The translations under genes were made by a program, and so were the position numbers. Below, piece after piece: positions 23,144-64,000 of a DNA stretch of 64,000 bases (positions are counted from its first letter, which is position 1; each line of letters starts with the position of its first letter). The notes beneath the pieces were generated by a model that saw nothing but the letters and a program-made list of their open reading frames with translations, was not told where the DNA came from and searched no databases. This DNA comes from Elusimicrobiota bacterium. GTDB lineage: Bacteria; Elusimicrobiota; Elusimicrobia; UBA1565. The DNA is taken from contig JBDRPD010000062.1 of assembly GCA_043827405.1 (NCBI GenBank), positions 32,001 through 96,000 of the forward strand. Reading direction: 5' to 3'.

Positions 23144-23149
23144 GCCGGC

Positions 23150-26888: not shown

Positions 26889-26918
26889 GGCCGGAATTAT
26901 AGCGAATATGGTTACGGC

Positions 26919-28739: not shown

Positions 28740-28742
28740 GGG

Positions 28743-29189
28743 CTACCCTTTTTTTACGGCGCCGTGAATTTTAAGCCGCGCCATCTCGAGCGCCGCCAGC
28801 GCGGCCTCCGCGCCGCGGTCGAACTTGCCGCGCGTGCGGGCCACGGCCTGGGCATAGGTTTTGGGAGTTATGACGCCGACCACGCAGGGCACACGGGTCT
28901 GCAGCGAGATGCGCTGGATGTGGATGTAGGTGGCGTTCGAGATATAGTCGTTTTGCGGGGTCTGTCCTTTGAGCACCGCGCCGAGGCAGATGACCGCGTC
29001 GAAGCGGCCGGAGCGGGCCAGTTCCTGCGCCGCCCAGGGAATCTCGAAGCCGCCGGGCACCCAGACCGTGTGGATGCGGTTGCCGGCGACGCCTTTCTTT
29101 TTCAGCGCGCGCACGCAGTTGGCGTGCAGCTTGCCGGTGATCTCCTCATTGAAGCGGGATACGACGATGCCGAATCGTGGCTGTTTCAT
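28743..29189 (-). CDS. ribH: 6,7-dimethyl-8-ribityllumazine synthase
   Basis: IVVSRFN, VPGGFEIP, DAVICLGAVLKGQT; position in rib operon. Confidence 0.95.
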   Translation of the reverse strand: MKQPRFGIVVSRFNEEITGKLHANCVRALKKKGVAGNRIHTVWVPGGFEIPWAAQELARSGRFDAVICLGAVLKGQTPQNDYISNATYIHIQRISLQTRVPCVVGVITPKTYAQAVARTRGKFDRGAEAALAALEMARLKIHGAVKKG

Positions 29190-30469: not shown

Positions 30470-31053
30470 TTGCCCTTCCGCTGGTCCAGGATGTTTACGA
30501 TGTAGCGTGCGAACAGGTCGACTTCTAGATTCACTACGCCGCCGGGCCGGTAGATGCCCAGCGTCGTCCGGTCGAGCGTCTCGGGGATGAGCACGGATTC
30601 GAAGTGATCCTTGCCGACCTTGGTCACGGTCAGGCTCGTGCCGTCAACCGCGATCGAGCCCTTAAGGGCTACGAACTTGCGCAGCGCCTTGGGCAGGCTG
30701 AAGCGCATGCGCACGAAGCCGCCGGGAACCTTCTCTTTTTCGAGCACCTTGGCGCGTGAGTCCACGTGCCCGCTGACCCAGTGGCCGCCGATGAAGTCCG
30801 CGGCCTTGAGCGAGGGCTCGAGGTTCACGCGCGCGCCCGCCTTGAGGCCGCCCAAATTCGTCAGCCGCAGCGTTTCCGGGCTGACGTCAAAGTCCACCGT
30901 GCCGTCCTGTTGCCGGATCGCGGTCAGGCAGGTGCCGTTGATGGCGACGCTGGCGCCCTTGGGCAGGCGTCCGAAGGTTACGCCGCGCACGCGCAGATAG
31001 GCGCCTTTGTTGGATACGACGGTTCCGAGTTTGCGAACGATGCCCGTGAACAT
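30466..31053 (-). CDS. ribE: riboflavin synthase
   Basis: MFTGIV start, NGTCLT, VNLE, GGHWVSGHVD. Confidence 0.96.
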   Translation of the reverse strand: MFTGIVRKLGTVVSNKGAYLRVRGVTFGRLPKGASVAINGTCLTAIRQQDGTVDFDVSPETLRLTNLGGLKAGARVNLEPSLKAADFIGGHWVSGHVDSRAKVLEKEKVPGGFVRMRFSLPKALRKFVALKGSIAVDGTSLTVTKVGKDHFESVLIPETLDRTTLGIYRPGGVVNLEVDLFARYIVNILDQRKGK

Positions 31054-31058
31054 AGCTG

Positions 31059-32153
31059 TTACCTCGCAGTAGTTATGCGGCCCGTCACGAGCAGGTCGCG
31101 GCCTGCCCGGCGGAATTCCATCGCGGTCAGTATCGGAGTGCGGCTTAAGCGGTGAAAGCCGCCGCCTTCGAAAAAGGAGCGCGCCTCCCGGCCCCCGATG
31201 AGGCGGGGGGACAGGAATAAATGTACCTCGTCGACCAGCCCGGCTTCGAGAAAAGATGTGTGTACGGCGCTGCCGCCCTCGACTAGAAGCGAGGATATCC
31301 CCCGGCGCGCGAGCGCTTTGAGCAGCGCGCGCAGATCGACGCCGCCGTTTTTGGCGCGCGGCAGGCGCAGGCAGTCGGCATGCGGCAAGCCGGCTTTGGC
31401 GGCGGTGGCGACCAGCGCCCGTCCGGGACCGCGGAACACCTTGGCCCGCTTGGGCGAACGCAGCCGCGTATCAAGTATCACCCGCAGAGGGTGCCTGCCG
31501 GTCCCGGCGGTGAGGCGGGGGTTGTCGGCCAGGACGGTGCCGACGCCGGTCAATATCGCGTCGACTTCGCCGCGCATGCGGCGGCTGATGGTCCGCGCCT
31601 CGGGGGAGGTGATCCACTTGGACTCCCGCGTCGCCGTCTCGATGCGGCCGTCCAGGCTGGCGCCGGCCTTAAGGATGACGTAGGGCCGCTTCTTCTTGAC
31701 CCAATGCACGAAGACGCGATTGAGCTCGAGCGCTTCTTTGTTGAGCGCTCCGCGAACGACGGTGATGCCGGCGCGCCGCAGCCGGGCGAAGCCCTTGCCG
31801 GAGACCAGGGGATTGGGGTCCGTCATCGCGGCGACCACGCGGCGCACTCCGGCCTTGATCAGCGCCTCCGTGCACGGCGGGGTCTTGCCGAAATAGCAGC
31901 AGGGCTCGAGCGTCACATAGGCGGTGGCGCCGCGCGCGCGTTTGCCCGCGCGCTTGAGCGCCTGGGGTTCGGCATGCGGTCCGCCGAAGCGCCGGTGCCA
32001 GCCGGTGCCGACGATCTCGCCGCCGCGTACGAGCACGCAGCCGACCATAGGATTGGGATGCGTGCCGCCAAGCCCCTTGACCGCCAGGGCGAGCGCCCGG
32101 CGCATGTAATACTCATCGGTTTTGTCTGTTTTATTCACGGGGCGGCGGCTCAA
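31059..32153 (-). CDS. ribD: riboflavin biosynthesis deaminase/reductase
   Basis: PNPMVG, HAE, TLEPCC..TPPC, SLDGRI, VEGG. Confidence 0.96.
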   Translation of the reverse strand: MSRRPVNKTDKTDEYYMRRALALAVKGLGGTHPNPMVGCVLVRGGEIVGTGWHRRFGGPHAEPQALKRAGKRARGATAYVTLEPCCYFGKTPPCTEALIKAGVRRVVAAMTDPNPLVSGKGFARLRRAGITVVRGALNKEALELNRVFVHWVKKKRPYVILKAGASLDGRIETATRESKWITSPEARTISRRMRGEVDAILTGVGTVLADNPRLTAGTGRHPLRVILDTRLRSPKRAKVFRGPGRALVATAAKAGLPHADCLRLPRAKNGGVDLRALLKALARRGISSLLVEGGSAVHTSFLEAGLVDEVHLFLSPRLIGGREARSFFEGGGFHRLSRTPILTAMEFRRAGRDLLVTGRITTAR

Positions 32154-51063: not shown

Positions 51064-51681
51064 CTATTTTTTGCGACCCCGCTGCTGCATCCTTTCGCCC
51101 CGGCGGTCCATGCGCTCGCCCTTGTCGTCCAGGCGCTCGCCCTGACGCTGCATTCTCTTGCCCTTGCGCTCGAGCTTGCCGCCGGCGCGTTCGCGGCCAT
51201 GCTTCTGCATGCGCTCGCCCTTGCGCTCCAGGCGCTCGCCCCGCCGCTCGCGCTTCTCGCCCTTGCGTTCCAGGCGCTCGCCCCGGCGCTCACGCTTCTC
51301 TCCGCGCTTCTCAAGGCCCTTGCCGTGCCCGCGCGGGCCTTCGCCCGCCTGCTCCTGCCGCCGCTCTCCGCGCTTCTGCATGCGCTCGCCCTGGCGGTCC
51401 AGGCGTTCGCCTTTGCGCTCCAGTTTGTCCGCTTTACGCTCGAGCTTGTCGGCGGCGCGGTCCTTGCCGTGCTTTTCCAGACGGTCGGCCTTGCGCTCGA
51501 GCTGTTCTCCCTTGCGCTCGAGCTTCTCGCCCCGGCGTTCGCGGCGCTCGCCGCGGCCCGGCCCGGCCTCCGGGCTCTCGCTGGCGGCGGCGGGAGCTTC
51601 CAGGTCTTCTTCGGCCCGGACGTCTACGGTCAAGGTGAGGGCAAGGCATGCGGCGGTGAGCAGGAACAGGCTGGTCTTCAT
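51064..51681 (-). CDS. secreted, highly charged heptad-repeat protein (GERLERK-type repeats)
   Basis: GGAG SD, signal peptide MKTSLFLLTAACLALTLTVDVRA, then about 20 repeats of G(E/K)(R/K)(L/M/R)(E/Q/D)(R/K)(K/R). Confidence 0.75.
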   Translation of the reverse strand: MKTSLFLLTAACLALTLTVDVRAEEDLEAPAAASESPEAGPGRGERRERRGEKLERKGEQLERKADRLEKHGKDRAADKLERKADKLERKGERLDRQGERMQKRGERRQEQAGEGPRGHGKGLEKRGEKRERRGERLERKGEKRERRGERLERKGERMQKHGRERAGGKLERKGKRMQRQGERLDDKGERMDRRGERMQQRGRKK

Positions 51682-52795: not shown

Positions 52796-54163
52796 ATGCC
52801 CGATCAGCATGAATGCCGTTATCCGAACGGCAATGTTCTCTACCGGAGGCTGAAAAAGACCTATCCCCGGATCGTCCGGGGCGAGGGGATCATGCTCTAC
52901 GACGCGGAGGGCAAGGAGTATATTGACGCCTGCTCGGGAGCGTACGTCACCAATATCGGTCATGGCGTGCGCGAGGTCGCCGACGCGCTGTCGGCACAGG
53001 CTCGCCGCTTCGCCTACGTCAACGGTACGGCTTTCACCCACGACGCGGCCGAAGAAGCCGCGTATGAGCTCGCCAAACGCTGTCCGCATGGTCTCGACAA
53101 GGTCTTCCTGCTGCTCAGCGGCTCCGATGCCGTGGAGGCGGCGCTCAAGACCGCCCGCCAGTACTGGGCCGCGCTGGGCAAGCCCGAGAAGAAGAAGCTC
53201 TTTGCCCTGACGCCGAGTTATCACGGCAGCGGCCTGTTGGCGCTGTCCGTTTCCGGCCGGCCGGAGTATCAGAAGACCTACCAGGACTGGATCGTGGATG
53301 TGGTGCGGGGCCCGGCGCCGTATCCCTACCGCTGCCTGTGCCGCGGCAAGGATCCGGTCTGCCCCTCCTGCACGGGCACCGGCATCGAAAAAAGGATTCT
53401 GGAGGAAGGGCCGGAAAAAGTCGCCGCGATCATCATCGAGCCGATCGGGGGCTCCTCGACCGGCTGTTCCGTGCCCCGTCTTGAGTTCCTGCGCAACCTG
53501 CGCGCTTTCTGCGACAAGTACGACGTGCTGTTGATCGCCGACGAGGTGCTGACCGGCGCCGGACGCACCGGGACCTGGTCGGCGCTCGAGCACTACGGCG
53601 TGGTCGCCGACCTGCTGGTCTTCGGCAAAGGCATTACCGGCGGCTATGCGCCGCTCTCGGCGCTGGTGACTTCGGAAAAGATCGCCGACGTCTTCGCGCG
53701 CAGCAGCGGCAGCCTGCCGCATAATCAGACTTTCTCGCACTTCTCCGTCTCCTGCGCCGCCTGCGTCGCGGCGCTGGCGTACCTCAAGGAGCATGGGCTC
53801 ATCGAGCGCTGCGCACGGATGGGAGAGAAGCTGCAGGAAAAGCTGCAGATCCTGCGCGAGCACCCGAATGTCGGCGACGTTCGCGGCAAGGGCTTGCTGG
53901 CGGGCGTGGAGTTCGTGGAAGACCGGGAGTCCCGGATGCCGTTCGAGCGGCGGCGGCGCTGCGCGGAAACGTTCGCGCAGCTGGCGCAGGATATGGGGCT
54001 GGTGGTCTGGCCGAACTACGGACAGGCGGACGGGGTCAACGGGGACCTCGCGATGCTGGCGCCGCCGTTTACGGTCACGGAGAGCGAGCTCGACCGCATC
54101 ATCGATTTATTCCGGGGCGCGCTCAAAGCGACGCTTAATTCCATGCGCAAGGACGCGGCATAG
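52796..54163 (+). CDS. class III aminotransferase (BioA/beta-amino-acid transaminase-like)
   Basis: SGSDAVE, SYHG, IADEVLTGAGRTG, FGKGITGGYAPL (PLP Lys), GDVRGKGL. Confidence 0.93.
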   Translation: MPDQHECRYPNGNVLYRRLKKTYPRIVRGEGIMLYDAEGKEYIDACSGAYVTNIGHGVREVADALSAQARRFAYVNGTAFTHDAAEEAAYELAKRCPHGLDKVFLLLSGSDAVEAALKTARQYWAALGKPEKKKLFALTPSYHGSGLLALSVSGRPEYQKTYQDWIVDVVRGPAPYPYRCLCRGKDPVCPSCTGTGIEKRILEEGPEKVAAIIIEPIGGSSTGCSVPRLEFLRNLRAFCDKYDVLLIADEVLTGAGRTGTWSALEHYGVVADLLVFGKGITGGYAPLSALVTSEKIADVFARSSGSLPHNQTFSHFSVSCAACVAALAYLKEHGLIERCARMGEKLQEKLQILREHPNVGDVRGKGLLAGVEFVEDRESRMPFERRRRCAETFAQLAQDMGLVVWPNYGQADGVNGDLAMLAPPFTVTESELDRIIDLFRGALKATLNSMRKDAA

Positions 54164-54181
54164 TCCGCGGCGGAGGTTTTT

Positions 54182-55762
54182 ATGGCGACGGCAGCGAAGA
54201 CGGACAAAATCACCTATACGTCGGCGAATGTCGACATGACGGAGTTCCATTTACAATTCGATAAAGCGCTGGCGAAGCTCCGCGCCGAGGCCGGCAGGAG
54301 CTACCCGCTTTATATCGGCGGCCGGGCGGTGGAAACGAAGAACGAGCCCGTGGTCGACGTTTCGCCGATCGATACTTCGCTGGTTCTCGGCCGGTTCGCC
54401 AGCGCCGGCCACGACGAGGTGGACGCCGCGATCAGAAACGCCTACGGCGTGCGCAAGGAGTGGGAGCATACGCCCTGGCCGGAGCGCGTCAAGATTATGC
54501 GCCAGGCGGCGGCGCTGGTGCGCGAGCGCAAGTATGAGCTGGCCGCCCTCATGGGGCTTGAGGTCGGCAAGAATCGGATGGAGTGCATCGGCGACGCCGA
54601 GGAGTCGGCCGACCTCATCGATTACTACGCCCAGCAGATGGAAGACCACAAGGGCTACATCCAGGAGCTCAATAAGATTACGCCGATCGAAACCAATACC
54701 GATATCCTGCGGCCCTTCGGCGTCTTCGTCTGCGTCGCGCCCTTTAACTTCCCGCTGGCGCTGTCCTGCGGCATGTCGTCCGCCTGTCTGGTGGCCGGCA
54801 ACGTCATCGTCTATAAGCCGTCAAAGGATACGCCATGGACGGGCCTGAAGCTCTACGAGATCTACCGCGACGCCGGCGTCCCCGCGGGCGCCTTTAACTT
54901 CATAACCGGCCGGGGCGCGGATATGGGCGATTCGCTGTGGCGGCATCCGCTGGTCGGCGGCATCGTTTTCACCGGCTCCAAGCAGGTCGGCATGCATATG
55001 TACCGGGAGTTCAGCAGCCGGTGGGTGAAGCCCTGCATGCTCGAGCTGGGCGGCAAGAACGCGACCGTGGTCATGGACTCGGCGGATCTCGACGCCGCGG
55101 CGGAGGGCATTATGAAGTCGGCCTGGGGGCTGCAGAACCAGAAGTGCAGCGCCTGCTCCCGGGTTTACGCCCACAAGAGCGTGGTGCAGGAGCTCACCGC
55201 CAAGATCATTGAGAGAACCCGGGCGATCAAGATGGGGGATCCGACGGAGAAGGACGTCTACTTCGGCCCCGTCATCAACGGCAGCTCGATCAAAAAGTAC
55301 GAGCAGGCCGTGGCGCAGGCCAAAAAGGACGGGGAGATTCTTATCGGCGGCGAGCGCCTTAAGGGCGGCGTCTTCGATAAAGGCAATTTCCTCGCGCCGA
55401 CCATCGCCCGGCTTCCGCTGTCGAGCTCGCTGTTCATGGAGGAGCTGTTTGTGCCTTTTCTGGCTATCGGCGAGGTCGAGACGCTGGATCAGGCGCTCGA
55501 AGAATGCAATAAGGCCGAGTACGGCCTGACCTCCGGCATCTTCTCCAAGAACAAGGAGGAGGTCGAGCACTTCTTCGACATGATCGAGACCGGTGTGACC
55601 TATGCCAATAAGCGCACGGGGGCCACTACCGGCGCCTGGCCGGGCGCCCAGGCCTTCTGCGGCTGGAAGGGCTCGGGCTCGACCGGCAAGGGGGGGTGCG
55701 GCCCCTACTACGTCGCGCAGTTCATGCGCGAGCAATGCCGTACGGTTATCGAGGAGGTGTGA
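54182..55762 (+). CDS. aldehyde dehydrogenase, Delta1-pyrroline-5-carboxylate dehydrogenase (RocA/PruA)-like
   Basis: PFNFP, FTGS, ELGGKN, QKCSACSR, EYGLT, QAFCGWKGSGSTGKGG. Confidence 0.9.
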   Translation: MATAAKTDKITYTSANVDMTEFHLQFDKALAKLRAEAGRSYPLYIGGRAVETKNEPVVDVSPIDTSLVLGRFASAGHDEVDAAIRNAYGVRKEWEHTPWPERVKIMRQAAALVRERKYELAALMGLEVGKNRMECIGDAEESADLIDYYAQQMEDHKGYIQELNKITPIETNTDILRPFGVFVCVAPFNFPLALSCGMSSACLVAGNVIVYKPSKDTPWTGLKLYEIYRDAGVPAGAFNFITGRGADMGDSLWRHPLVGGIVFTGSKQVGMHMYREFSSRWVKPCMLELGGKNATVVMDSADLDAAAEGIMKSAWGLQNQKCSACSRVYAHKSVVQELTAKIIERTRAIKMGDPTEKDVYFGPVINGSSIKKYEQAVAQAKKDGEILIGGERLKGGVFDKGNFLAPTIARLPLSSSLFMEELFVPFLAIGEVETLDQALEECNKAEYGLTSGIFSKNKEEVEHFFDMIETGVTYANKRTGATTGAWPGAQAFCGWKGSGSTGKGGCGPYYVAQFMREQCRTVIEEV

Positions 55763-55763
55763 G

Positions 55764-57158
55764 ATGAAAACTAAAAAGAAGCCCCGGGCGAAGAAGAAAA
55801 CCGGGCTGAAGCGGCCCGCGGCGTCCGCGCGCCGGGACTATCCCCGCATCGTCACGCCGCCTCCGGGTCCCAAGGCCCGGCAAATCATCGATATCGACGA
55901 TCGCTATTCCTCGACGAGCTATATGAAAATCTACCCGCTCGTCGTCTCGCACGGCGAAGGCTCGATGGTCGAGGACGTCGACGGCAACCGCTACATCGAC
56001 TTCATGGCGGGCATCGCCGTGGCCACCACCGGCTATGCCCATCCCAAGGTCGTCGCCGCGGTGCGCGAGGCGGCCGGCAAGTTCTTCAGCATGTGCTCGA
56101 CCGACTGGTACTACGAGAGCTTCGCGAAGCTGTGCGAGCGGCTCGCTCATCTCGCGCCCGGCGACAATAAGAAGCGTGTTTTCCTGACCAACTCGGGCGC
56201 CGAGGCGGTCGAGGGAGCGATCAAGCTGGCGCGCAACTCGACCAAGCGGACGGCCCTGATCGCCTTTCGCCGCGCTTTCCACGGCCGCACCTACGGCGCC
56301 ATGAGCCTGACCTCGAGCAAGGTCGTGCAGCGCGCCTTCTTCATGCCGATGCTGCCGGGGGTGTATCACACCGACTACCCGGACCCGTACCGCGTTGTCT
56401 ACGACCGCCGGCGCTTCAAGAACGTCTCGGAGTACTGCATCTGGCAGATTCATGAGGACCTGTTCCAGCGCCATGTGCTGCCGGAGAACGTGGCGGCCAT
56501 CTTCATCGAGCCCATGCTCGGAGAGGGCGGCTATGTGCTTCCCCCTAAGGAGTTCCTGGTCAGCCTGCGCAAGCTGTGCGACGAGTTCGGCATCCTGCTG
56601 GTCTTCGATGAGATTCAGTCCGGCGCCGGGCGCACCGGCCATATGTGGGCCGCCGACTACTACGGGGTCGAGCCGGACGTCCTGCTGACGGCCAAGGGGA
56701 TCGCTTCGGGCATGCCCATCGGAGCGATCATCGCCAAGGAGTCGGTCATGAAGTGGAAGCCGGGTTCGCACGGCTCGACTTTCGGCGGCAACCCCGTCTG
56801 CTGCGCGGCGGCGCTCGCGACGCTCGATCTGCTCGAAGGCGGGCTGATGGAGAACGCGCGCCGGATGGGCGCGCGGTTGATGAAGGGGCTGGAGCGGCTG
56901 AAGAACAAGTTCACGATCATCGGCGACGTACGCGGCACCGGGCTCTTCATCGGCGTCGAGTTCGTCAAGAGCCGGCGTACCAAGGAGCCCGCGAAGTCCT
57001 TCGTCAACGAGCTCTACATGCGCGCTTTCCACAAAGGCCTGCTGCTGCTGCCCTGCGGCGAGAGCGTGGTGCGCATCGCCCCGCCGCTGAACATCAGCGA
57101 GTATGATGTGGACAAGGGGCTCGAGATCCTCGAGAAATGTCTCGACGAGCTGACGTGA
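55764..57158 (+). CDS. class III aminotransferase (ornithine/lysine/4-aminobutyrate omega-aminotransferase-like)
   Basis: YPRIVTPPPGPKAR start, NSGAEAVE, AFHGRT, FDEIQSGAGRTG, AKGIASG, HGSTFGGNP. Confidence 0.93.
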   Translation: MKTKKKPRAKKKTGLKRPAASARRDYPRIVTPPPGPKARQIIDIDDRYSSTSYMKIYPLVVSHGEGSMVEDVDGNRYIDFMAGIAVATTGYAHPKVVAAVREAAGKFFSMCSTDWYYESFAKLCERLAHLAPGDNKKRVFLTNSGAEAVEGAIKLARNSTKRTALIAFRRAFHGRTYGAMSLTSSKVVQRAFFMPMLPGVYHTDYPDPYRVVYDRRRFKNVSEYCIWQIHEDLFQRHVLPENVAAIFIEPMLGEGGYVLPPKEFLVSLRKLCDEFGILLVFDEIQSGAGRTGHMWAADYYGVEPDVLLTAKGIASGMPIGAIIAKESVMKWKPGSHGSTFGGNPVCCAAALATLDLLEGGLMENARRMGARLMKGLERLKNKFTIIGDVRGTGLFIGVEFVKSRRTKEPAKSFVNELYMRAFHKGLLLLPCGESVVRIAPPLNISEYDVDKGLEILEKCLDELT

Positions 57159-58063
57159 CGGGCAAGGTCGTCTCAATGCGGGAGGCCGTGGCCTCCTGCG
57201 TGCAGGACGGCGCGACGGTCGTCATCGAGGGGTTCACGCACCTCATCTGCTTCGCGGCGGCGCACGAGATCATCCGGCAGGGGCGGCGGGACCTGACCGT
57301 CTGCCGCCTGACGCCGGACCTCATCTACGACCAGTTGATCGGCGCGGGCTGCGTGAAGAAGCTGGTCTTCTCCTGGGCCGGCAATCCCGGCGCCGGCTCG
57401 CTGCATGCCTTCCGCCGGGCGCTGGAGGGCAAATCCGATAAGCCTCTCGAGATCGAGGAGTACTCGCACTTCGGCATGGTCGCGCGCTTTCAGGCCGGTG
57501 CGGCCAACCTGCCGTTCTGGCCGCTGCGCAACTTTATGGGCACCGATCTCCCCGTCGTCAACGACCGCATCAAGAGCGTGACCTGCCCGTTTACCGGCGA
57601 GGTCCTCGCCGCGGTGCCGGCGCTCAACCCCGACGTGACCATCATCCACGCCCAGCGCGCCGACAAAAACGGGAACGCGCAGGTCTGGGGGCTGCTGGGG
57701 GTGCAGAAAGAAGCGGCCTTCGCCTCCAAGAAGGTGATCGTGGTCGTCGAGGAACTGGTTGACGAGCAGGTCGTGCGCTCCGATCCGAACCGGACCTTGA
57801 TCCCGGGCGCCATCGTCAGCGCCGTGGTCGTTGAGCCTTTCGGCGCCCATCCTTCCTTCGCCCAAGGCTACTACGACCGCGACAACGCCTTCTACCTGTC
57901 GTGGGAGAAGATCGCGCGCGACCCCAAGGACTTCGCCAAGTACCTCGACGAGTTCGTCATGGGCGTCAGCGGCCGGGCCGAGTACATGGAAAAGCAGGAA
58001 GGGCTCGCCGCGCGGCTCAAGGCGGATCAGCGCGTCTGCGCCGGGGTGAACTATGGCTTCTGA
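57155..58063 (+). CDS. catI: CoA-transferase subunit A, CatI/GctA type (3-oxoadipate/glutaconate CoA-transferase)
   Basis: EGFTHLI, HEIIRQG, TPDLIYDQLIGAGC, SWAGNPG, CPFTGE, GVQKEAA, GYYDRDN match the CatI-type sequence as I recall it. Confidence 0.85.
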   Translation: MTGKVVSMREAVASCVQDGATVVIEGFTHLICFAAAHEIIRQGRRDLTVCRLTPDLIYDQLIGAGCVKKLVFSWAGNPGAGSLHAFRRALEGKSDKPLEIEEYSHFGMVARFQAGAANLPFWPLRNFMGTDLPVVNDRIKSVTCPFTGEVLAAVPALNPDVTIIHAQRADKNGNAQVWGLLGVQKEAAFASKKVIVVVEELVDEQVVRSDPNRTLIPGAIVSAVVVEPFGAHPSFAQGYYDRDNAFYLSWEKIARDPKDFAKYLDEFVMGVSGRAEYMEKQEGLAARLKADQRVCAGVNYGF

Positions 58064-58832
58064 GACTCTCGACTATACGCTGAGCGAGATGATGGCCGTG
58101 GTTTCGGCGCGGGAGCTCAAGGACGGCGAAGTGGTTTTCGTCGGCATCGGCCTGCCCAACTTGGCCTGCAATTTGGCGCGCGTGACGCATGCCCCCAATC
58201 TGACCTTGATCTACGAGTCCGGCGCCGTGGGCGCCGTGCCTGAGCGGCTGCCGGTCTCGATCGGCGATCCGGCCCTGGTGACGGGTTCGCTCATGGTGGC
58301 GACCATGCCCGATATTTTTCAGTATTTCCTGCAGGGCGGCAAGATCGACGCCGGATTCCTCGGCGGCGCCCAGATCGACCGCTGGGGGAATATCAATACC
58401 ACGGTGATCGGGGACTACGCCAAGCCGAAGGTGCGCCTGCCGGGAAGCGGCGGCGCTCTTGAGATCGCCGTTCACTCGAAGCGGACGCTTATCATCAGCA
58501 AGTTGTCCAAGCGGGTGTTTCCGGAGGCGGTGGACTTCGTGACCAGCCCCGGCTACCGCTACCGCGGCAGGAGCCGCAAGGAGTTCGGCATGCCGGGCGC
58601 GGGACCGGTTAAGGTTATCACCGACAAGTGCATTCTCGCAGCCGATCCGGAGTCCGGGGAGATGACGCTGTCCGCGCTTTATCCGGGGGTCGAAGCCGCG
58701 GAGGTTCGCGACAGCGTGGGCTGGGACCTTAAAGTCCGGCCGACGCTTGGCGGTGTCGAACCGCCGACCGCGGAAGAGCTGCGGCTGCTGCGCGAAGAGC
58801 TCGATCCCGATAAGCTTTTCCTCAAGGGCTGA
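58053..58832 (+). CDS. catJ: CoA-transferase subunit B, CatJ/GctB type
   Basis: FVGIGLP, LIYESG (catalytic Glu), SIGD, LQGG, GNINTTVIGDYAKPKVRLPGSGGA. Confidence 0.85.
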   Translation: MASETLDYTLSEMMAVVSARELKDGEVVFVGIGLPNLACNLARVTHAPNLTLIYESGAVGAVPERLPVSIGDPALVTGSLMVATMPDIFQYFLQGGKIDAGFLGGAQIDRWGNINTTVIGDYAKPKVRLPGSGGALEIAVHSKRTLIISKLSKRVFPEAVDFVTSPGYRYRGRSRKEFGMPGAGPVKVITDKCILAADPESGEMTLSALYPGVEAAEVRDSVGWDLKVRPTLGGVEPPTAEELRLLREELDPDKLFLKG

Positions 58833-58837
58833 GCCGC

Positions 58838-59434
58838 GTGACGCGCAACGTCTACGTCTTTCGTCACGGCGAGACGGATTGGAATGCCGAGCGGCGGCTG
58901 CAGGGGCATTCCGACGTGAAGCTCAATGCCGCCGGCCGCGAGCAGGCCCGGGACCTGGCCAAGCTTCTGCGCCCCCTGGACCTCCCAGCGGTGCTGTGCT
59001 CCGATTTATCGCGTGCGGCGGAGACCGCGCGCATCGTCTTTTCTGACGCCCCGGAGCTGATCCAATACAAGCGCGAGCTCCGGGAAGCCTATCTCGGCAA
59101 GCTGCAGGGTACGCTGCGCAGCGAGTATGAACGTGTTCACGGCAAGGAGCAGTTCTCCCGCTGGCTGTCGGTGAAGGACGAGGATCAGGATTTCTGCTTT
59201 CCCGGGGGCGAGACCAAGCTGCAGCATCTTGCGCGGGTGCGGACCTGCCTCGAGTCCTACCTCGCCGTTCACGACTTCGCGCGGATCGGCGTCTGCACTC
59301 ACGGCGGGACCATCCGGCGCTTCGTCCATTTTGTCCGGGGGTCCGGCGCCGAGCCCGTATCCATCGCCAACTGCGCGGTCTACCACCTGAAATACGACGG
59401 TGTTCGCTGGGCTTACGTCGGGAAGCTGTCCTGA
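58838..59434 (+). CDS. histidine phosphatase family protein
   Basis: RHGETDWN, SDLSRA, LRE, THGG. Confidence 0.9.
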   Translation: MTRNVYVFRHGETDWNAERRLQGHSDVKLNAAGREQARDLAKLLRPLDLPAVLCSDLSRAAETARIVFSDAPELIQYKRELREAYLGKLQGTLRSEYERVHGKEQFSRWLSVKDEDQDFCFPGGETKLQHLARVRTCLESYLAVHDFARIGVCTHGGTIRRFVHFVRGSGAEPVSIANCAVYHLKYDGVRWAYVGKLS

Positions 59435-59436
59435 AA

Positions 59437-60264
59437 TTAGTTGAAAACGACGTTCTTTTGGAAACGGCTCTTGAGGATCGCGCCTTGCGCCGGGTAGTTT
59501 TTAAGTTCGCGGTCGAGTTCCTGCAGCCGCTGCGCCAGCGGCGGGTGGCGGCTGTCAAAAGAACCCTTGCTGGGCGCGTGCTCGCCGCCGTAGAGGCGCT
59601 TGAGCGCCGCCGGCAGGCCGTCCGGGTGATAGCCGCTCGCCGCCAGTATCCCCAGCCCCTTATGATCGGACGCGGTTTCCTGCTGGCGGGAATAGCCCTT
59701 GTCGGCGATGTACTCGACGGCGAGCTCGGCGAGCCGGTGGGCGCCGCCGCCGCCATTGAGCTTCTCCAATCCCAATCCCGCGCCCTTCATTACGCGGATC
59801 CCTTGGATGGCATGCTTGTCGTCGACGTGTACGATTTCATGCGCCAGCACGCCGGCGAGCTGGGCTTCGTTGCCCAAGCGCTGCAGCAGGCCCCGGGTTA
59901 CAAAGACATAGCCGCCGGGAGCGGCATAGGCGTTGACTGAGCGGGAGTTCAGGATGCCGAAATGATAGGTCATGCCGCCGCGTTTCGCCTTGCGGATCAG
60001 CGTGTTCCCTACCAGGCCGACATAGCGCGTCAGCGCGTCGTCTTCGTAGATGCCGAAGCGGCCGATGAGCCGGGCGGCGACCTCGCGGCCGAGCTCCCTC
60101 TCGCTTTCCGGCGTCAGGTGAAACTCGGCGGCGATTTCCGCGCCCTTCTGCAGATACTTCTCCCCTTTACGGCCGAGCTCCTTGAGCTCATACTTGCGCT
60201 CAGCGCGGGAAGGGGCGAGTCCGGCAAGCAGCAGGGCGGCGGAGAGAACGGCGGCGCGCCTCAA
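59437..60264 (-). CDS. M48 family zinc metallopeptidase, secreted
   Basis: NAYAAPGG, LAHEIVH, YSRQQETASD, SRHP. Confidence 0.9.
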   Translation of the reverse strand: MRRAAVLSAALLLAGLAPSRAERKYELKELGRKGEKYLQKGAEIAAEFHLTPESERELGREVAARLIGRFGIYEDDALTRYVGLVGNTLIRKAKRGGMTYHFGILNSRSVNAYAAPGGYVFVTRGLLQRLGNEAQLAGVLAHEIVHVDDKHAIQGIRVMKGAGLGLEKLNGGGGAHRLAELAVEYIADKGYSRQQETASDHKGLGILAASGYHPDGLPAALKRLYGGEHAPSKGSFDSRHPPLAQRLQELDRELKNYPAQGAILKSRFQKNVVFN

Positions 60265-62237
60265 AGCATTTTCTCTTGCTCGAAGATGCGGGCGTCCTCC
60301 CAGAAGATAAAGGCGCCAAAGAGCAGAAAGAGCAGGCCCAGCGGCAGCAGCGCGCCGGTCCCCTGCAGCCGCTCTCGCAGCTTGGCGAAGGGCTGTTCGC
60401 TCATGCGTCGGAAGGCGGATTTTTTCTTCTCAGCAGCGGCCGCGGTCTTGGCGGCGGCGGCGGTCGCGCTCATCTCTACCGCGATCCCGTCGGAGGACAT
60501 CATCTGGTCGACGGCCTCGCTGCGCTGCTGCTGCGCCGCGACGGGCCGGGCGCCGTCTTTCTGCTGCTTGTCCATTTCCGGCTGGTAGTTCGCGGCGGCG
60601 GCGAAAAAAAGCGCGGCAGCGCCGCAGAGGACGAAGAAAAAGGTGCGGATAGGGACGGCCTCTTCGGGATGGGTGCTGCGGTTCTTGAACAGCGCCAGGA
60701 AGTAGAAACATGCGCCGGCCAAGGCCAGGACAGGAGCCCGTTGATGGCGGGCTTGTGCGTCAAGCAGGACGCGCCAGGTGAGGCTGTCGGGAAGGCCGAA
60801 CTGAAAGGCGGCGGCGGCCGACAGCGCCGAGAACAAGAGCACTCCGACGATCGTCAGCCGGCTCTTGCGCGACTGGGAGGCCAGGCGCACCGTCATGAGA
60901 AAGCCGAATACGGACAGCGGCAGGAATATCGCGCGGCCGGCCGCGGCCAAGGACTCCGGCGTGGGCGGTGCGCCTTGGATGCCGGCGAAATACAGCTGCG
61001 CGACGCCGAGACTCAGCAGGGCGAGCGAGACGACGCCGAGACCGGCGGGAGCGGCGCCCGCCGAAGCGAGGGTCAAGAGGACCGGGGCGCTCAGGTAGAC
61101 CAGGTCCTTCATCCCGGCGAAGACGGCGCTGGCGCCCGTCGCGAGCCACAGCACGGCGGAGACCAGCGGCTTCCAGCTGACGGGATTAAGCGCATGCGGA
61201 TCGTCAGGATCATCGATCTCTTGGAAAGTTTCGCCGGGAGAATCCGCCGGCGGCAGCGGGGTGCGTAAAGTCGGCGTCATGCCGCCCGGGTTGGGCGCGG
61301 GGATCGGTACCGCCGCTCCTTCCACGTGCGTGGGAGACGGACGCTTGCCGGGCGTTATGATGCCGAGGTCGATGACTTGGCCGCCGGTCATCATTTCGTT
61401 GGCGTCGCCGACGACCATGCCCGGGGAGTTGAGCGCCTGCAGAAGTTCCGTTACGTCCTTGTAGCGCTCCGCCGGCTTCTTGGCCATCATCTTCATGATG
61501 ACCTCGGCGGCCATGGTGCTCACGTCGGGATGAACCGAGCGGGCATCCGGTACCGGATTATTGCAGTGCATGGCCACGATATCCTGCGGCGTCGGGCCCA
61601 TAAACGGCGGCTGCCCCGTGATCATGTGAAAATAGGTCGCGCCCATAGCGTAGATATCGCAGCGGCCATCCACCGCCTGGCCGTATATCTGCTCCGGCGC
61701 CATGTAGAGCGGCGTGCCGATAACTTCGGCGGCCTGGGCTTTGCCCGCAGGGTCCGTCTTGAGCGCCAAGCCGAAGTCGGCGAGGCGGATAGCGCCGTCT
61801 TTGGCCAGCAGGATGTTGGAGGGTTTGATGTCGCGGTGGACGATGCCGTGCTTATGCGCTTCCTGCAGCCCTTCGAGCGAGGCTTTGATGATCTGCAGGC
61901 AGCGCAGCGGTTCGATCTTGCCCGAACGTCCGAGCAGGTCCTCGGCGGTCTCACCGTCGACGAACTGCATGACGATGTAGTTGAGGTTGTTCTCCGCTCC
62001 CACGTCGTAGACCTGGGTGATGCGGGGATGTTCGAGGCGCGCCGCCGCCCGCGCTTCCAGCTGGAAGGATTCCACCGCGCCCGGACGGGCGGCGACTTTG
62101 GGATAAAGGAACTTGATGACGACGACGCGATCGAGGCGGACATGATGGGCCTGGTAGGCGACGCCCATGCCGCCCTCGCCAAGCTTCTTGAGGATTTGGC
62201 AGCCGCCGACTGTTTTGCCAATCATGGGATCGGGCAT
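60261..62237 (-). CDS. Hanks-type Ser/Thr protein kinase with multi-pass C-terminal membrane domain
   Basis: LGEGGMG, VIK, HRDIKPSN, DFG, GTPLYMAPE; about eight hydrophobic segments downstream. Confidence 0.93.
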   Translation of the reverse strand: MPDPMIGKTVGGCQILKKLGEGGMGVAYQAHHVRLDRVVVIKFLYPKVAARPGAVESFQLEARAAARLEHPRITQVYDVGAENNLNYIVMQFVDGETAEDLLGRSGKIEPLRCLQIIKASLEGLQEAHKHGIVHRDIKPSNILLAKDGAIRLADFGLALKTDPAGKAQAAEVIGTPLYMAPEQIYGQAVDGRCDIYAMGATYFHMITGQPPFMGPTPQDIVAMHCNNPVPDARSVHPDVSTMAAEVIMKMMAKKPAERYKDVTELLQALNSPGMVVGDANEMMTGGQVIDLGIITPGKRPSPTHVEGAAVPIPAPNPGGMTPTLRTPLPPADSPGETFQEIDDPDDPHALNPVSWKPLVSAVLWLATGASAVFAGMKDLVYLSAPVLLTLASAGAAPAGLGVVSLALLSLGVAQLYFAGIQGAPPTPESLAAAGRAIFLPLSVFGFLMTVRLASQSRKSRLTIVGVLLFSALSAAAAFQFGLPDSLTWRVLLDAQARHQRAPVLALAGACFYFLALFKNRSTHPEEAVPIRTFFFVLCGAAALFFAAAANYQPEMDKQQKDGARPVAAQQQRSEAVDQMMSSDGIAVEMSATAAAAKTAAAAEKKKSAFRRMSEQPFAKLRERLQGTGALLPLGLLFLLFGAFIFWEDARIFEQEKML

Positions 62238-62305
62238 AATCGATTAAGTATGAGAATAGCAGTACATTTAGCTGTTGGCAAGTCATCATTTGCTAAAATG
62301 AGCAC

Positions 62306-63664
62306 ATGAAAAAAGCGGCACGCACGAGCAAAATGAAAGCGCAGGTTTCCGAACAGCCCTTCAAATATCCCATCGCCAAGCCCTTCGCGGAGCCGGACTG
62401 GCGTCGTTTTGCGGTCTGGAAGGATGCTTCACGCGCGGACTGGGAGAGCGCGCTGTGGCAGCGGCGCCATTCGATCAAGAACCTCAAGGAGTTCAAGACC
62501 GCGTTCGGCGAGCATCTCGCGGACGATCTGCTGGCCGACATCGACCGGGATCAGCAGCAGTTCGCGACCATGTCGATGCTGATCCCTCCGCAGATGATCA
62601 ACACCATGGATGAGAAGGATCTGCGCGCAGATCCCGTCCGCCGCTATATGGCGCCCGCCGCCAGCGAGCGCCATCCCGAGTGGTCGAATCACCCCAAGGC
62701 TTCGCGCGACAGCCTGCACGAAGCCGACATGTGGGCCGTCGAAGGACTGACGCACCGCTATCCGACCAAGGTGCTGGCCGAACTGCTGCCGACCTGCCCG
62801 CAGTACTGCGGGCACTGCACGCGGATGGACTTGGTGGGCAATAATACGCCGCAGGTGCAGAAGGTCGGCTTCGCCATGAAACCGAAGGAGCGCTACGCGG
62901 CGATTCTCGACTACCTGCGCCGGACGAAGTCGGTGCGCGACGTCGTCATCTCCGGGGGAGATATCGCGAACCTGCCCATTCAGGTGCTCGAGCCGTTCGT
63001 AAACTCGGTCATGGAACTCCCCAATGTCCGGGATGTCCGGCTTGCAACCAAGGGCCTGATGGGGCTGCCGCAGCACTTCCTGCAGGATGAGGTGCTTAAA
63101 GGCTTCGAGCGCATCGCCAAGAAGGCGCATGAATGCGGCGTCGAAATCGCCGTCCATACGCACGTCAACAGCGCGCGTCAGCTGACCCCGCTGGTCGCTA
63201 AAGCCGTGCGTAAGCTCCTGGATATGGGCTACCGCGACGTGCGCAACCAGGGGGTGCTGATGCGCGGCGTCAACGCGACCGCGAAGGATCTGCTGGAGCT
63301 GTGCTTCACTTTGCTCGACCATGCCAAGATCATGCCGTACTACTTCTACATGTGCGACATCATCCCCAACTCCGAGCATTGGCGCCTCGCCGTATGGGAG
63401 GCGCAGCAGCTGCAGCATGACATCATGGGCTATCTCCCGGGCTTCGCGACCCCGCGTATCGTCTGCGACGTGCCGTTTGTCGGGAAGCGCTGGGTTCAGC
63501 AGTGCGGCGGCTATGACCGGGAAAAAGGAATATCCTGCTGGACCAAGAACTACCGCACCAGCATTGAGGCGGACGATCCCGATGCGCTGACGCGCAAGTA
63601 TGAGTATTTCGATCCGATCTATACGCTGCCGCCCGCCGGACAGGAATACTGGAGCAAGCAATAG
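62306..63664 (+). CDS. kamA: lysine 2,3-aminomutase (KamA-family radical SAM/PLP enzyme)
   Basis: GLTHRYPTKVL, CPQYCGHCTR, SGGD, HTHVN, RNQGVLMRGVN, PYYFYMCD, VGK. Confidence 0.88.
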   Translation: MKKAARTSKMKAQVSEQPFKYPIAKPFAEPDWRRFAVWKDASRADWESALWQRRHSIKNLKEFKTAFGEHLADDLLADIDRDQQQFATMSMLIPPQMINTMDEKDLRADPVRRYMAPAASERHPEWSNHPKASRDSLHEADMWAVEGLTHRYPTKVLAELLPTCPQYCGHCTRMDLVGNNTPQVQKVGFAMKPKERYAAILDYLRRTKSVRDVVISGGDIANLPIQVLEPFVNSVMELPNVRDVRLATKGLMGLPQHFLQDEVLKGFERIAKKAHECGVEIAVHTHVNSARQLTPLVAKAVRKLLDMGYRDVRNQGVLMRGVNATAKDLLELCFTLLDHAKIMPYYFYMCDIIPNSEHWRLAVWEAQQLQHDIMGYLPGFATPRIVCDVPFVGKRWVQQCGGYDREKGISCWTKNYRTSIEADDPDALTRKYEYFDPIYTLPPAGQEYWSKQ

Positions 63665-63668
63665 GTTA

Positions 63669-63857
63669 ATGTTTTACCGGATGCCGAAAGGCGACGGCGC
63701 GTTTCTCGCCGGGCTCTTGGTCTTTTCCGCCTTGGCCTTTCTCATTCCGGCGCTGCGCACCGCCAAGTTTGCGGGCGTCGCATATTTCGGCTGGTGGATG
63801 GCCGCCCTGATGTTTCTGGGACCGCTGTGGGCGCTGCTGCGGATGCTTAAGAAATGA
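63669..63857 (+). CDS. small two-TM membrane protein, probable accessory subunit of the downstream symporter
   Basis: 62 aa with two hydrophobic helices; ATGA overlap with the SSS gene. Confidence 0.7.
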   Translation: MFYRMPKGDGAFLAGLLVFSALAFLIPALRTAKFAGVAYFGWWMAALMFLGPLWALLRMLKK

Positions 63858-64000
63858 GCGTCGAAGCGGTCCTGGTCGTTCTCTATCTCGCGTGCTGCAT
63901 CGCTATCGGCGTCTATTTCGCGCGTCAAGGCCTGTCCTCGCAGGAGGAATACTGGGTCGCGGGGCGCAATATCGGCGTCGCCGCCAATGCCATGGCGATC
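63854..64000 (+). CDS. sodium:solute symporter (SSS family), truncated by the window end
   Basis: MSVEAVLVVLYLACCIAIGVYFARQGLSSQEEYWVAGRNIG matches SSS TM1 plus the EYxVAGR motif. Confidence 0.8.
   Translation, partial: MSVEAVLVVLYLACCIAIGVYFARQGLSSQEEYWVAGRNIGVAANAMAI

What the first reader, a model, noticed from the sequence alone, without database searches (positions are those of the whole stretch)
52796..64000. Candidate undescribed lysine catabolic route via beta-lysine, 3-aminoadipate and 3-oxoadipate
Seen: a tightly coupled operon of class III aminotransferase, P5C-dehydrogenase-like ALDH, second class III aminotransferase, CoA-transferase A/B and a histidine phosphatase (52796-59434). 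About 2.9 kb further on the same strand is a KamA-family aminomutase followed by an SSS transporter. Established: KamA converts L-lysine to L-beta-lysine. CatIJ-type CoA-transferases (Pseudomonas CatIJ, related to glutaconate CoA-transferase GctAB) activate 3-oxoadipate. Ornithine is degraded by omega-transamination to P5C and then by P5C dehydrogenase to glutamate. Inference: beta-lysine is the one-carbon homolog of ornithine. Omega-transamination (55764-57158) would give 3-aminoadipate semialdehyde, which cyclises to the five-membered pyrroline-5-acetate, a natural fit for a P5C-dehydrogenase-like enzyme yielding 3-aminoadipate. Beta-transamination (52796-54163) would give 3-oxoadipate, the CatIJ substrate, and thiolysis would yield succinyl-CoA plus acetyl-CoA. 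This accounts for five of the six operon genes and explains a 3-oxoadipate CoA-transferase with no aromatic-degradation genes in the window. It differs from the B12-dependent lysine 5,6-aminomutase fermentation and from the N-acetyl-beta-lysine route. I know no description of it but cannot search the literature.
Basis: partly seen in the sequence, partly recalled or inferred. Interest (0 to 1): 0.88.

Follow-up and report, generated by a model that had tools for sequence, protein, structure and literature searches.

The report
Probable B12-free lysine breakdown pathway
A gene cassette shared by several groups of soil and water bacteria most likely breaks down the amino acid lysine without vitamin B12, feeding it into enzymes best known from aromatic-compound breakdown; I found no description of this route and no enzyme in it has been tested.

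Summary
The genes are as described. Five of them form a cassette conserved in Elusimicrobiota, Gemmatimonadota, Myxococcota and Actinomycetota: AT1, ALDH, AT2 and CoA-transferase A/B. The phosphatase is not part of it (0 of 83 cassette loci).

The kamA link is real. It directly follows the CoA-transferase in three same-family genomes, and 74 of 82 ALDH carriers in this order have it. This genome lacks kamDE, kdd, kce and kal, but has a PcaF-like thiolase and separate canonical ornithine enzymes. All 4 kamD genomes of the order lack the ALDH.

Against: in Myxococcota 18 of 27 carriers also hold kamD, five cassettes lack the ALDH, and this genome has an unlinked beta-lysine acetyltransferase.

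Best reading (0.62): lysine → beta-lysine → 3-aminoadipate → 3-oxoadipate → succinyl-CoA + acetyl-CoA. Every substrate is inferred, none assayed. I found no description in 10 literature searches. The scan probably noted this system before on other DNA (e1-2450751).

The parts
52796..54163 (+). AT1, class III aminotransferase of the PRK07483/PRK06917 group; proposed 3-aminoadipate (beta-amino acid) transaminase
   Evidence: Best models PRK07483 (405 bits, cut-off 485) and PRK06917 (401, cut-off 535). PLP Lys278 invariant in 65 of 65 orthologs, N-terminal Arg17 in 62 of 62. Lacks the GabT Arg141/Glu211/Arg398 set. A 39%-identical S. meliloti homolog lies two genes from a beta-keto acid cleavage enzyme. 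Only about 25% identical to the Kat-like enzyme of G538.
54182..55762 (+). ALDH of the P5C-dehydrogenase clade, a distinct subfamily; proposed 3-aminoadipate-6-semialdehyde (pyrroline-5-acetate) dehydrogenase
   Evidence: Best models PRK03137 and TIGR01237, below cut-off. Best structure is T. thermophilus P5CDH. K-C-S catalytic loop and Glu141 invariant in 70 of 70 orthologs; Arg132 in 68 of 70; a 3-residue insertion before the anchor loop and the motif GATTGAWPG are conserved.
55764..57158 (+). AT2, omega-aminotransferase; proposed beta-lysine 6-aminotransferase
   Evidence: Passes the PRK05769 cut-off (599 vs 552). Best structure 7VNO, E 4e-120. Arg175, Glu254, Lys311 and Arg437 invariant in 68 of 68 orthologs.
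57137..58063 (+). CoA-transferase subunit A, GctA/CatI-like second form of 3-oxoadipate CoA-transferase
   Evidence: PF01144; best structure GctA 1POI; 58% identical to the S. meliloti pSymB protein in an IclR regulator-A-B-thiolase locus.
58053..58832 (+). CoA-transferase subunit B
   Evidence: PF01144; 50% identical to the S. meliloti partner; Glu55 invariant in 53 of 53 orthologs (its catalytic role is recalled from GctB).
58838..59434 (+). Histidine phosphatase; co-transcribed passenger, not part of the conserved cassette
   Evidence: PF00300; no homolog in any of 83 cassette loci.
59437..62237 (-). Two intervening genes (M48 peptidase, Ser/Thr kinase) that separate the operon from kamA in this genome
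   Evidence: Absent between CoA-transferase B and kamA in G456, G462 and G463.
62306..63664 (+). KamA-family radical-SAM/PLP enzyme; proposed lysine 2,3-aminomutase
   Evidence: Only PDB hit is lysine 2,3-aminomutase 2A5H, E 4e-45. CxxxCxxC (164-171), Arg173, Asp351, Asp388 and Lys394 invariant in 111 of 111 subfamily members. The same subfamily lies with kamD, kamE, kdd and kal elsewhere.
63669..63857 (+). 62-aa hydrophobic ORF, possible accessory subunit of the SSS transporter (inference)
   Evidence: Translated; no Pfam family; its stop overlaps the SSS start.
63854..64000 (+). Start of an SSS sodium:solute symporter (474 aa, runs past the window); candidate lysine or beta-lysine importer
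   Evidence: PF00474. Orthologs at 59-71% lie beside cassette genes in L111, L113 and L267. An APC amino-acid permease takes this place in 18 of 83 cassette loci.

Best explanation
The cassette plus KamA and a PcaF-like thiolase degrade L-lysine without coenzyme B12. (1) KamA: L-lysine to L-beta-lysine. (2) AT2 moves the 6-amino group to 2-oxoglutarate, giving 3-aminoadipate 6-semialdehyde, which closes to a five-membered pyrroline-5-acetate, the one-carbon homolog of P5C. (3) The ALDH oxidises it to 3-aminoadipate. (4) AT1 transaminates the beta-amino group to give 3-oxoadipate. (5) The CoA-transferase makes 3-oxoadipyl-CoA from succinyl-CoA. (6) The thiolase (G000:C7:302-1501) cleaves it to succinyl-CoA and acetyl-CoA. 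Shown here: gene identities, conserved linkage, co-occurrence, absence of the classical route in this genome, and conserved active-site residues. Inferred: every substrate and the order of steps; steps 2 to 4 would be undescribed activities.
For: Linkage: kamA directly follows CoA-transferase B in G456, G462 and G463. It lies next to AT2 in Gemmatimonadota (L012, L021, L031, L064, L166-L171) and in one Myxococcota genome (L266). It heads the cassette in two Actinomycetota loci (L041, L045; unpublished genomes G231, G235). Co-occurrence: in this order 74 of 82 ALDH carriers have the close KamA and 26 of those 74 have both on one contig within 31 kb. In Gemmatimonadota 12 of 13 close-KamA genomes have the ALDH (11 of 12 without the seed genome), against 30 of 188 others; 37 of 102 genomes with either KamA type have it, against 5 of 99 with neither. 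Replacement of the B12 route: 0 of 61 genomes in a set chosen mostly by KamA similarity hold both the ALDH (29) and kamD (16); all 4 kamD genomes of this order lack the ALDH; G538 carries kce-kdd-kamDE upstream of the same ABC-F gene where its congener G088 carries the CoA-transferase genes. End point: a PcaF-like thiolase lies in 17 of 83 cassette loci, directly after CoA-transferase B in 12 Myxococcota loci; this genome has one but no paaA or intradiol dioxygenase. Not needed for ornithine: canonical ornithine aminotransferase and P5C dehydrogenase are encoded separately. Enzymes: residues and closest relatives.
Against: No biochemical or genetic test. In Myxococcota 18 of 27 signature-ALDH genomes also have kamD, against a baseline of 159 of 251. 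All 5 such genomes checked have kamD, kamE, kal and kce; kdd was in the fetched locus in 4 of the 5. Five cassettes (G088, G511, G512, G513, G516) lack the ALDH. Eight genomes of this order, G769 and five Gemmatimonadota have the ALDH but no KamA was found; G150 is 97% complete. This genome has an AblB-type beta-lysine N-acetyltransferase beside a deacetylase, and a deacetylase follows AT1 in 3 cassette loci. Only 6 of 80 KamA-centred loci had AT2 nearby. The thiolase scores 522 bits against the PcaF cut-off of 597. Related genomes are not independent observations.
Confidence: 0.62

Rival explanations
1. N-acetyl/GABA route: beta-lysine is N6-acetylated, AT1 transaminates it at C3, the CoA-transferase and thiolase give 4-acetamidobutyryl-CoA and acetyl-CoA, a deacetylase frees GABA, and AT2 and the ALDH take GABA to succinate.
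For: G000 has an AblB-type acetyltransferase over the TIGR03827 cut-off next to an HDAC-family deacetylase and an SSS gene on C15. A deacetylase follows AT1 in L126, L129 and L132. AT1 is of the PRK06917 group that I recall as B. subtilis YodT. AT2 keeps the GabT arginine/glutamate set. The best NCBIfam match of the cassette permease is a GABA antiporter, far below cut-off.
Against: The acetyltransferase is in 0 of 83 cassette loci and a deacetylase in 3. None of its 10 metagenome relatives has kamA or cassette genes nearby, though several contigs are short. The ALDH scores 421 for P5CDH against 247-261 for SSADH models. G088 keeps AT1-AT2-CoT and its only ALDH hit is a canonical P5CDH. The CoA-transferase and thiolase are 3-oxoadipate types.
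Confidence: 0.13
2. Same route to 3-aminoadipate, but CoA activation comes first and AT1 transaminates 3-aminoadipyl-CoA, as Kat does with 3-aminobutyryl-CoA.
For: It avoids a free, decarboxylation-prone beta-keto acid; Kat sets the precedent (PMC3149608, passages).
Against: Kat is HemL-like, whereas AT1 is only about 25% identical to the Kat-like enzyme of G538. An AT1 homolog sits near a BKACE gene, an enzyme family that acts on free beta-keto acids. The CoA-transferase is close to an enzyme assayed on free 3-oxoadipate.
Confidence: 0.08
3. The cassette handles alpha-lysine, ornithine or 5-aminovalerate (towards 2-aminoadipate, glutamate or glutarate), and kamA is only a neighbour in an amino-acid catabolic region.
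For: AT2's closest characterised relative uses L- and D-ornithine and lysine (PMC9986279 table). The cassette coexists with the full classical route in myxobacteria and occurs in some genomes without a detected KamA. Acyl-CoA dehydrogenases lie near some cassettes.
Against: Canonical ornithine aminotransferase and P5CDH exist separately. The adjacent thiolase is PcaF-like, which a glutarate route does not need. The nearby acyl-CoA dehydrogenases score best as AcrC or FadE types and come with 3-hydroxyacyl-CoA dehydrogenase. With kamA but no kamDE or kce, beta-lysine would have no catabolic sink here. kamA-cassette adjacency recurs in different gene orders in four phyla.
Confidence: 0.1
4. The mutase acts late: AT2 and the ALDH turn L-lysine into 2-aminoadipate and KamA shifts that to 3-aminoadipate, as proposed in this scan for a different operon family.
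For: Same genes and same end point; AT2-type enzymes accept L-lysine; lead from earlier finding e1-2111212.
Against: Both aspartates matching Asp293 and Asp330 of 2A5H are invariant in 111 of 111 (their role in binding the lysine side-chain amine is recalled). The same KamA subfamily is interleaved on the tree with copies that sit with kamDE and kdd. The ALDH scores 268 for piperideine-6-carboxylate dehydrogenase against 421 for P5CDH.
Confidence: 0.05

Closest known systems
Clostridial/Fusobacterium lysine fermentation (KamA, KamDE, Kdd, Kce, Kal or Kat; PMC3149608, passages read)
   Same: Entry by lysine 2,3-aminomutase to beta-lysine; the same KamA subfamily sits with these genes in other genomes.
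   Different: No kamD, kamE, kdd, kal or kce in this genome; the 6-amino group would be removed by transamination and oxidation, not shifted by a B12 enzyme; products would be succinate and acetyl-CoA, not butyrate and acetate.
N6-acetyl-beta-lysine degradation (Pseudomonas B4, Brevibacterium L5) and the B. subtilis yodTSRQP-kamA operon (both recalled; PMC6522883 passages confirm only that YodT is an uncharacterised SigE-dependent class III aminotransferase and that the role of B. subtilis KamA is unknown)
   Same: KamA, a PRK06917/PRK07483-group aminotransferase and a two-subunit CoA-transferase.
   Different: No acetyltransferase in any of 83 cassette loci and a deacetylase in only 3; an omega-aminotransferase and a P5CDH-like ALDH are present instead; the CoA-transferase is of the GctAB-like form.
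Ornithine catabolism by ornithine omega-aminotransferase and P5C dehydrogenase (PH1423/TK2101 type; TtP5CDH)
   Same: AT2 and the ALDH are closest to these enzymes, and the proposed chemistry is the one-carbon homolog.
   Different: The ALDH is below the P5CDH cut-offs and carries its own conserved insertion and motif; canonical ornithine enzymes are encoded elsewhere; ornithine catabolism needs no CoA-transferase or thiolase.
Lower beta-ketoadipate pathway, second form of PcaIJ plus PcaF (S. meliloti SMb20587/20588, Xanthomonas Xcc0364/0365; PMC4682078, passages read)
   Same: 58%, 50% and 55% identity to the A subunit, B subunit and thiolase of an S. meliloti pSymB locus.
   Different: No intradiol dioxygenase or paaA in this genome; 3-oxoadipate would come from an amino acid.

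Membership tests
Lysine 2,3-aminomutase (KamA) | Radical-SAM CxxxCxxC motif and PLP-binding lysine | tested here: met
   Cys164/168/171 and Lys394 invariant in 111 of 111.
Lysine 2,3-aminomutase (KamA) | Residues matching Arg134, Asp293 and Asp330 of 2A5H (roles recalled) | tested here: met
   Arg173, Asp351 and Asp388 align with them and are invariant. A search of PMC9081730 for these residues found nothing.
Lysine 2,3-aminomutase (KamA) | Score over the curated TIGR03820 or TIGR00238 cut-off | tested here: not met
   178 vs 525 and 170 vs 199 bits; a divergent subfamily.
Lysine 2,3-aminomutase (KamA) | Converts L-lysine to L-beta-lysine | not testable with these tools
   Indirect only: the subfamily lies with kamD, kamE, kdd and kal in other genomes.
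B12-dependent lysine fermentation pathway | kamD/kamE, kdd, kce and kal or kat in the genome | tested here: not met
   No PF09043 or PF05853 match and no tblastn hit for kamD, kamE, kdd or kal in G000, while the same queries hit L198 and L292-L296. Genome 97.97% complete.
N6-acetyl-beta-lysine route / yod-type operon | Beta-lysine acetyltransferase and deacetylase linked to the aminotransferase and CoA-transferase | tested here: inconclusive
   Both genes exist in G000 on another contig; acetyltransferase in 0 and deacetylase in 3 of 83 cassette loci; other whole genomes not searched for them.
P5C dehydrogenase (RocA/PutA type) | Score over the curated P5CDH cut-offs | tested here: not met
   421 vs 648 (PRK03137) and 403 vs 660 (TIGR01237).
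P5C dehydrogenase (RocA/PutA type) | K-C-S catalytic loop, anchor-loop Gly-Ala and the Glu137 equivalent (roles recalled) | tested here: met
   Present and invariant; preceded by a conserved 3-residue insertion.
PRK05769 omega-aminotransferases (PH1423/TK2101 type) | Score over the cut-off and GabT-type Arg/Glu/Arg set | tested here: met
   599 vs 552 bits; Arg175, Glu254 and Arg437 invariant.
Kat acyl-CoA beta-transaminase | HemL-like sequence clade | tested here: not met
   HemL models are not among AT1's best 25; about 25% identity to the HemL-like enzyme in the kamDE cluster of G538.
3-oxoadipate CoA-transferase, second (GctAB-like) form | High identity to the S. meliloti/Xanthomonas enzymes and linkage to pcaF | tested here: met
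   58%/50% identity; PcaF-like gene in 17 of 83 cassette loci. That the L289 locus is SMb20587/20588 is inferred from its gene order.
3-oxoadipate CoA-transferase, second (GctAB-like) form | Activity on 3-oxoadipate rather than glutarate or glutaconate | not testable with these tools
   Needs an assay.
PcaF 3-oxoadipyl-CoA thiolase (G000:C7) | Score over the TIGR02430 cut-off | tested here: inconclusive
   PcaF models score best (522-531 bits) but below cut-offs of 597-605; 55% identical to the S. meliloti thiolase.

The most novel reading that the evidence does not exclude
A third beta-lysine catabolic route, needing neither B12 nor N-acetylation, runs through 3-aminoadipate into the beta-ketoadipate enzymes. 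It is the main lysine sink of a whole Elusimicrobiota order and of many Gemmatimonadota, swaps places with the kamDE route, and brings three undescribed activities: beta-lysine 6-aminotransferase, pyrroline-5-acetate dehydrogenase and 3-aminoadipate transaminase.
Probability: 0.65. Interest if true: 0.82.

Novelty: new variant of a known kind. Interest (0 to 1): 0.72.

Why it matters
It would add a widespread lysine degradation pathway, present in 82 of 101 genomes of this order, 42 of 201 sampled Gemmatimonadota and 27 of 251 sampled Myxococcota by the ALDH marker. It would explain kamA in genomes without kamDE, and pcaIJF-like genes in genomes without aromatic ring cleavage, which are now read as signs of aromatic degradation. 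It would give a function to three unassigned enzyme subfamilies. It also offers a natural route from lysine to 3-oxoadipyl-CoA, a known entry to bio-based adipate: the abstract of PMC7241714 states that enzymes deaminating beta-lysine or lysine for adipic acid production are not known (search listing). Cultured carriers exist, for example Cystobacter fuscus NCWS, which has the cassette, the thiolase and kamA, and no kamD hit.

Tried and rejected
Histidine phosphatase as a pathway member: rejected, 0 of 83 cassette loci.

Plain ornithine or proline catabolism: weakened, because canonical enzymes are separate and no proline dehydrogenase was found.

Aromatic degradation as the reason for the CoA-transferase and thiolase: no paaA or intradiol dioxygenase; benzoyl-CoA and extradiol routes were not searched.

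Strict mutual exclusion with kamD as a general rule: rejected by the Myxococcota sample. In Gemmatimonadota kamD was found in 0 of 201, so that sample cannot test exclusion.

A dedicated replacement gene for the ALDH in ALDH-less cassettes: the genes upstream of AT1 are mnmA, a fabD-like gene or an unassigned ORF; canonical P5CDH was present in the 3 of 5 genomes checked.

The ALDH as a stand-alone marker below about 43% identity: plasmid homologs at 39-43% lie in other contexts, and three Myxococcota hits lack the GAWPG motif.

Promoter and terminator scan: 4 promoter-like sites against 1.8 expected, none informative.

Literature support for the KamA residue roles and for BKACE-linked transaminases: not found in the papers opened.

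No structure prediction or complex prediction was run, as neither would settle substrate identity.

Full report
OBSERVATION. The window is G000:C62:32001-96000 of a 4.33 Mb genome, 97.97% complete. Its KamA groups with named Elusimicrobiota records on the tree, so I read it as Elusimicrobiota. Two minus-strand genes separate the six-gene operon from kamA, which is followed by a 62-aa ORF and an SSS transporter.

THE CASSETTE. AT1, ALDH, AT2 and CoA-transferase A/B are conserved together. I tallied 83 fetched loci that hold an AT2 ortholog plus the ALDH or AT1, dropping short duplicates of wider loci. Of these, 78 have the ALDH, 81 AT1, 63 subunit A, 62 subunit B, 24 the close KamA, 17 a PcaF-like thiolase, 18 an APC permease, 3 a deacetylase, and none the phosphatase, the acetyltransferase or kamD. 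These loci were chosen around ALDH or KamA hits, so the 24 is not an unbiased rate. Of 80 loci centred only on KamA, 6 had AT2 nearby.

LINK TO kamA. In three genomes of the same family (G456, G462, G463) kamA follows CoA-transferase B directly. In Gemmatimonadota it reads kamA-AT2 with GntR-CoT divergent. In one Myxococcota genome it reads kamA-AT2 with ALDH-GntR-CoT-AT1 divergent (L266). In two Actinomycetota loci it reads AsnC-kamA-amidohydrolase-ALDH-AT2-CoT-AT1, between the same flanking genes that enclose kamA-kdd-amidohydrolase-kamDE in L054. That Actinomycetota observation rests on unpublished genomes G231 and G235 and may not be published without their depositors' permission.

CO-OCCURRENCE. 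Across the 101 genomes of this order, G000 included, 85 have the close KamA, 82 the ALDH and 74 both; 26 of the 74 have them on one contig within 31 kb. In 201 Gemmatimonadota, 12 of 13 close-KamA genomes have the ALDH (11 of 12 without the seed genome). A second, clostridial-like KamA (best model TIGR03820, 437 of 525 bits) occurs in 89 others and never with the close one, and 37 of the 42 ALDH carriers have one of the two. The count of 89 includes unpublished G302, G402 and G427. Relatives are not independent, so these counts overstate statistical strength.

RELATION TO THE B12 ROUTE. G000 gave no match for kamD, kamE, kdd, kal or kce. The same queries hit other loci, so the search works. 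In a set of 61 genomes, 57 of them chosen for the close KamA, 29 had the ALDH, 16 had kamD, none had both and 16 had neither. In this order the 4 kamD genomes all lack the ALDH. G538 has kce, kdd, kamDE, a HemL-like aminotransferase, a thiolase and the close KamA, upstream of the same ABC-F gene where its congener G088 has the CoA-transferase genes.

TREE. A quick (not the careful) tree of 90 of the 111 KamA sequences interleaves kamD-associated and cassette-associated copies; strongly supported branches force at least 6 changes of the kamD label. The 21 rows left out had no genome-level label. The cassette label was mostly set by a genome-level ALDH hit, and in G176, G202 and G205 that ALDH stands alone in its locus.

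RESULTS AGAINST. In 251 Myxococcota, 30 have the ALDH (27 with its GAWPG motif) and 18 of those 27 also have kamD, against 159 of 251 overall (the 159 includes unpublished G702). All five double carriers checked hold kamD, kamE, kal and kce, and four showed kdd in the fetched locus. So the two routes coexist there and exclusion is not general. Five cassettes lack the ALDH; the three checked have a canonical P5CDH that might stand in. Eight genomes of this order (completeness 62-97%), G769 and five Gemmatimonadota have the ALDH with no KamA found. G000 has an AblB-type acetyltransferase over cut-off in an SSS-deacetylase-acetyltransferase operon on C15. Its 10 metagenome relatives show no kamA or cassette genes nearby, so I read it as a separate module for making or recycling N6-acetyl-beta-lysine, but it keeps the N-acetyl rival alive.

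KamA AND AT2. KamA keeps the radical-SAM cysteines, the PLP lysine and residues aligned with Arg134, Asp293 and Asp330 of 2A5H in 111 of 111 sequences; the roles of those residues are recalled, not read. AT2 passes PRK05769 and is closest to 7VNO, which I recall as PH1423. PMC9986279 (passages) lists PH1423 as active on L- and D-ornithine and lysine and less on GABA. Indifference to the alpha-carbon makes beta-lysine a plausible substrate (inference).

ALDH AND AT1. The ALDH is closest to T. thermophilus P5CDH, keeps its catalytic and anchor residues, and adds a conserved 3-residue insertion, Arg132 and Trp486. In 3-aminoadipate semialdehyde the amine sits as in glutamate semialdehyde and the carboxylate is one carbon further out, which such changes could accommodate (inference). 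AT1 lacks the GabT carboxylate-binding set, has an invariant N-terminal arginine, is not HemL/Kat-like, and has a homolog near a BKACE gene in S. meliloti.

LOWER PATHWAY. The CoA-transferase is 58%/50% identical to an S. meliloti pSymB pair in a regulator-A-B-thiolase locus. PMC4682078 (passages) reports that S. meliloti SMb20587/20588 were purified and have 3-oxoadipate CoA-transferase activity; that L289 is this pair is inferred from gene order. G000:C7 encodes a thiolase best matched by PcaF models and 55% identical to the S. meliloti one, in a genome with no paaA or intradiol dioxygenase and with separate canonical ornithine aminotransferase and P5CDH.

MECHANISM. The most economical reading uses all conserved genes once: lysine to beta-lysine, 6-transamination, oxidation to 3-aminoadipate, 3-transamination, CoA transfer and thiolysis. 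Removing the 6-amino group first also avoids 3-oxo-6-aminohexanoate, which would cyclise and decarboxylate (general chemistry, recalled). I put this order at 0.62 and some form of beta-lysine catabolism by this cassette at about 0.83.

LITERATURE. Ten searches of the CC-licensed PMC and bioRxiv library returned no description of the route. The 12 papers naming 3-aminoadipate, beta-homoglutamate or similar terms are, by their listings, about metabolomics, meteorites or peptide chemistry, apart from one reference-title typo that I opened. I read passages of PMC6522883, PMC3149608, PMC9986279, PMC4682078, PMC9854754 and bioRxiv 10.1101/2023.02.15.528638; a term search in PMC9081730 was empty; all others I saw only as listings. 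Subscription journals, MetaCyc and supplements were not seen, and the N-acetyl route and the yod operon are recalled. An earlier scan note (e1-2450751) seems to describe the same system on other DNA; I saw only its summary.

VERDICT. A real, widely conserved module tied to a lysine 2,3-aminomutase, most likely an undescribed B12-independent lysine catabolic route through 3-aminoadipate. It is built from known enzyme families, so I class it as a new variant of beta-lysine catabolism. Interest 0.72.

Noticed in passing
G000:C15 about 14570-18100 (L220:10570-14098, minus strand): Operon of an SSS transporter, an HDAC-family deacetylase and an AblB-type beta-lysine N-acetyltransferase with no ablA beside it; the same trio is in metagenome locus L297. 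Possibly makes, imports and recycles N6-acetyl-beta-lysine.
   Followed up: partly
Gemmatimonadota loci L178-L182, L185 against L019, L037: A clostridial-like KamA sits after thyX and two D-Ala-D-Ala-ligase-like ATP-grasp genes in many genomes; in L019 and L037 the divergent KamA occupies that slot. The two types never co-occur in 201 genomes. The ATP-grasp pair may make a beta-lysine amide.
   Followed up: partly
L003, L007, L011, L052 (Myxococcota): The two KamA types lie in tandem; the reason for keeping both is unexplained.
   Followed up: no
L206, L207, L208, L209, L210 (G512, G516, G088, G513, G511): Cassettes AT1-AT2-CoA-transferase without the ALDH; three genomes checked have a canonical P5C dehydrogenase elsewhere.
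   Followed up: partly
L287 (Rhizobium sp. CB3171 plasmid NZ_CP121654.1): Deacetylase, GNAT, class III aminotransferase, LysR, FAD oxidoreductase, a GAWPG-type ALDH, 3-hydroxyacyl-CoA dehydrogenase and a KamA-family gene in one cluster; perhaps a related amino-acid route.
   Followed up: no
L186, L188, L196, L197 (same order): 3-hydroxyacyl-CoA dehydrogenase and an AcrC-like acyl-CoA dehydrogenase lie between the cassette and kamA; possibly an electron sink, or a reductive branch from 3-oxoadipyl-CoA.
   Followed up: no
G000:C62:97824-99958 and 101114-107507 (just past the window): After the SSS gene come a probable zinc-peptidase and ATP-grasp pair, then NuoE/NuoF-GltD/NuoG-like genes with an FMN-type glutamate-synthase-like gene (read from translations only); the latter could reoxidise glutamate or NADH.
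   Followed up: no
G000:C62:1-16800 and about 21200-32000 (L222, L223): Two very long ORFs, at least 5600 and about 3590 codons, upstream of the window.
   Followed up: no
window 51064-51681, minus strand: A secreted-looking 205-aa protein made of repeated charged segments, with no Pfam family.
   Followed up: no
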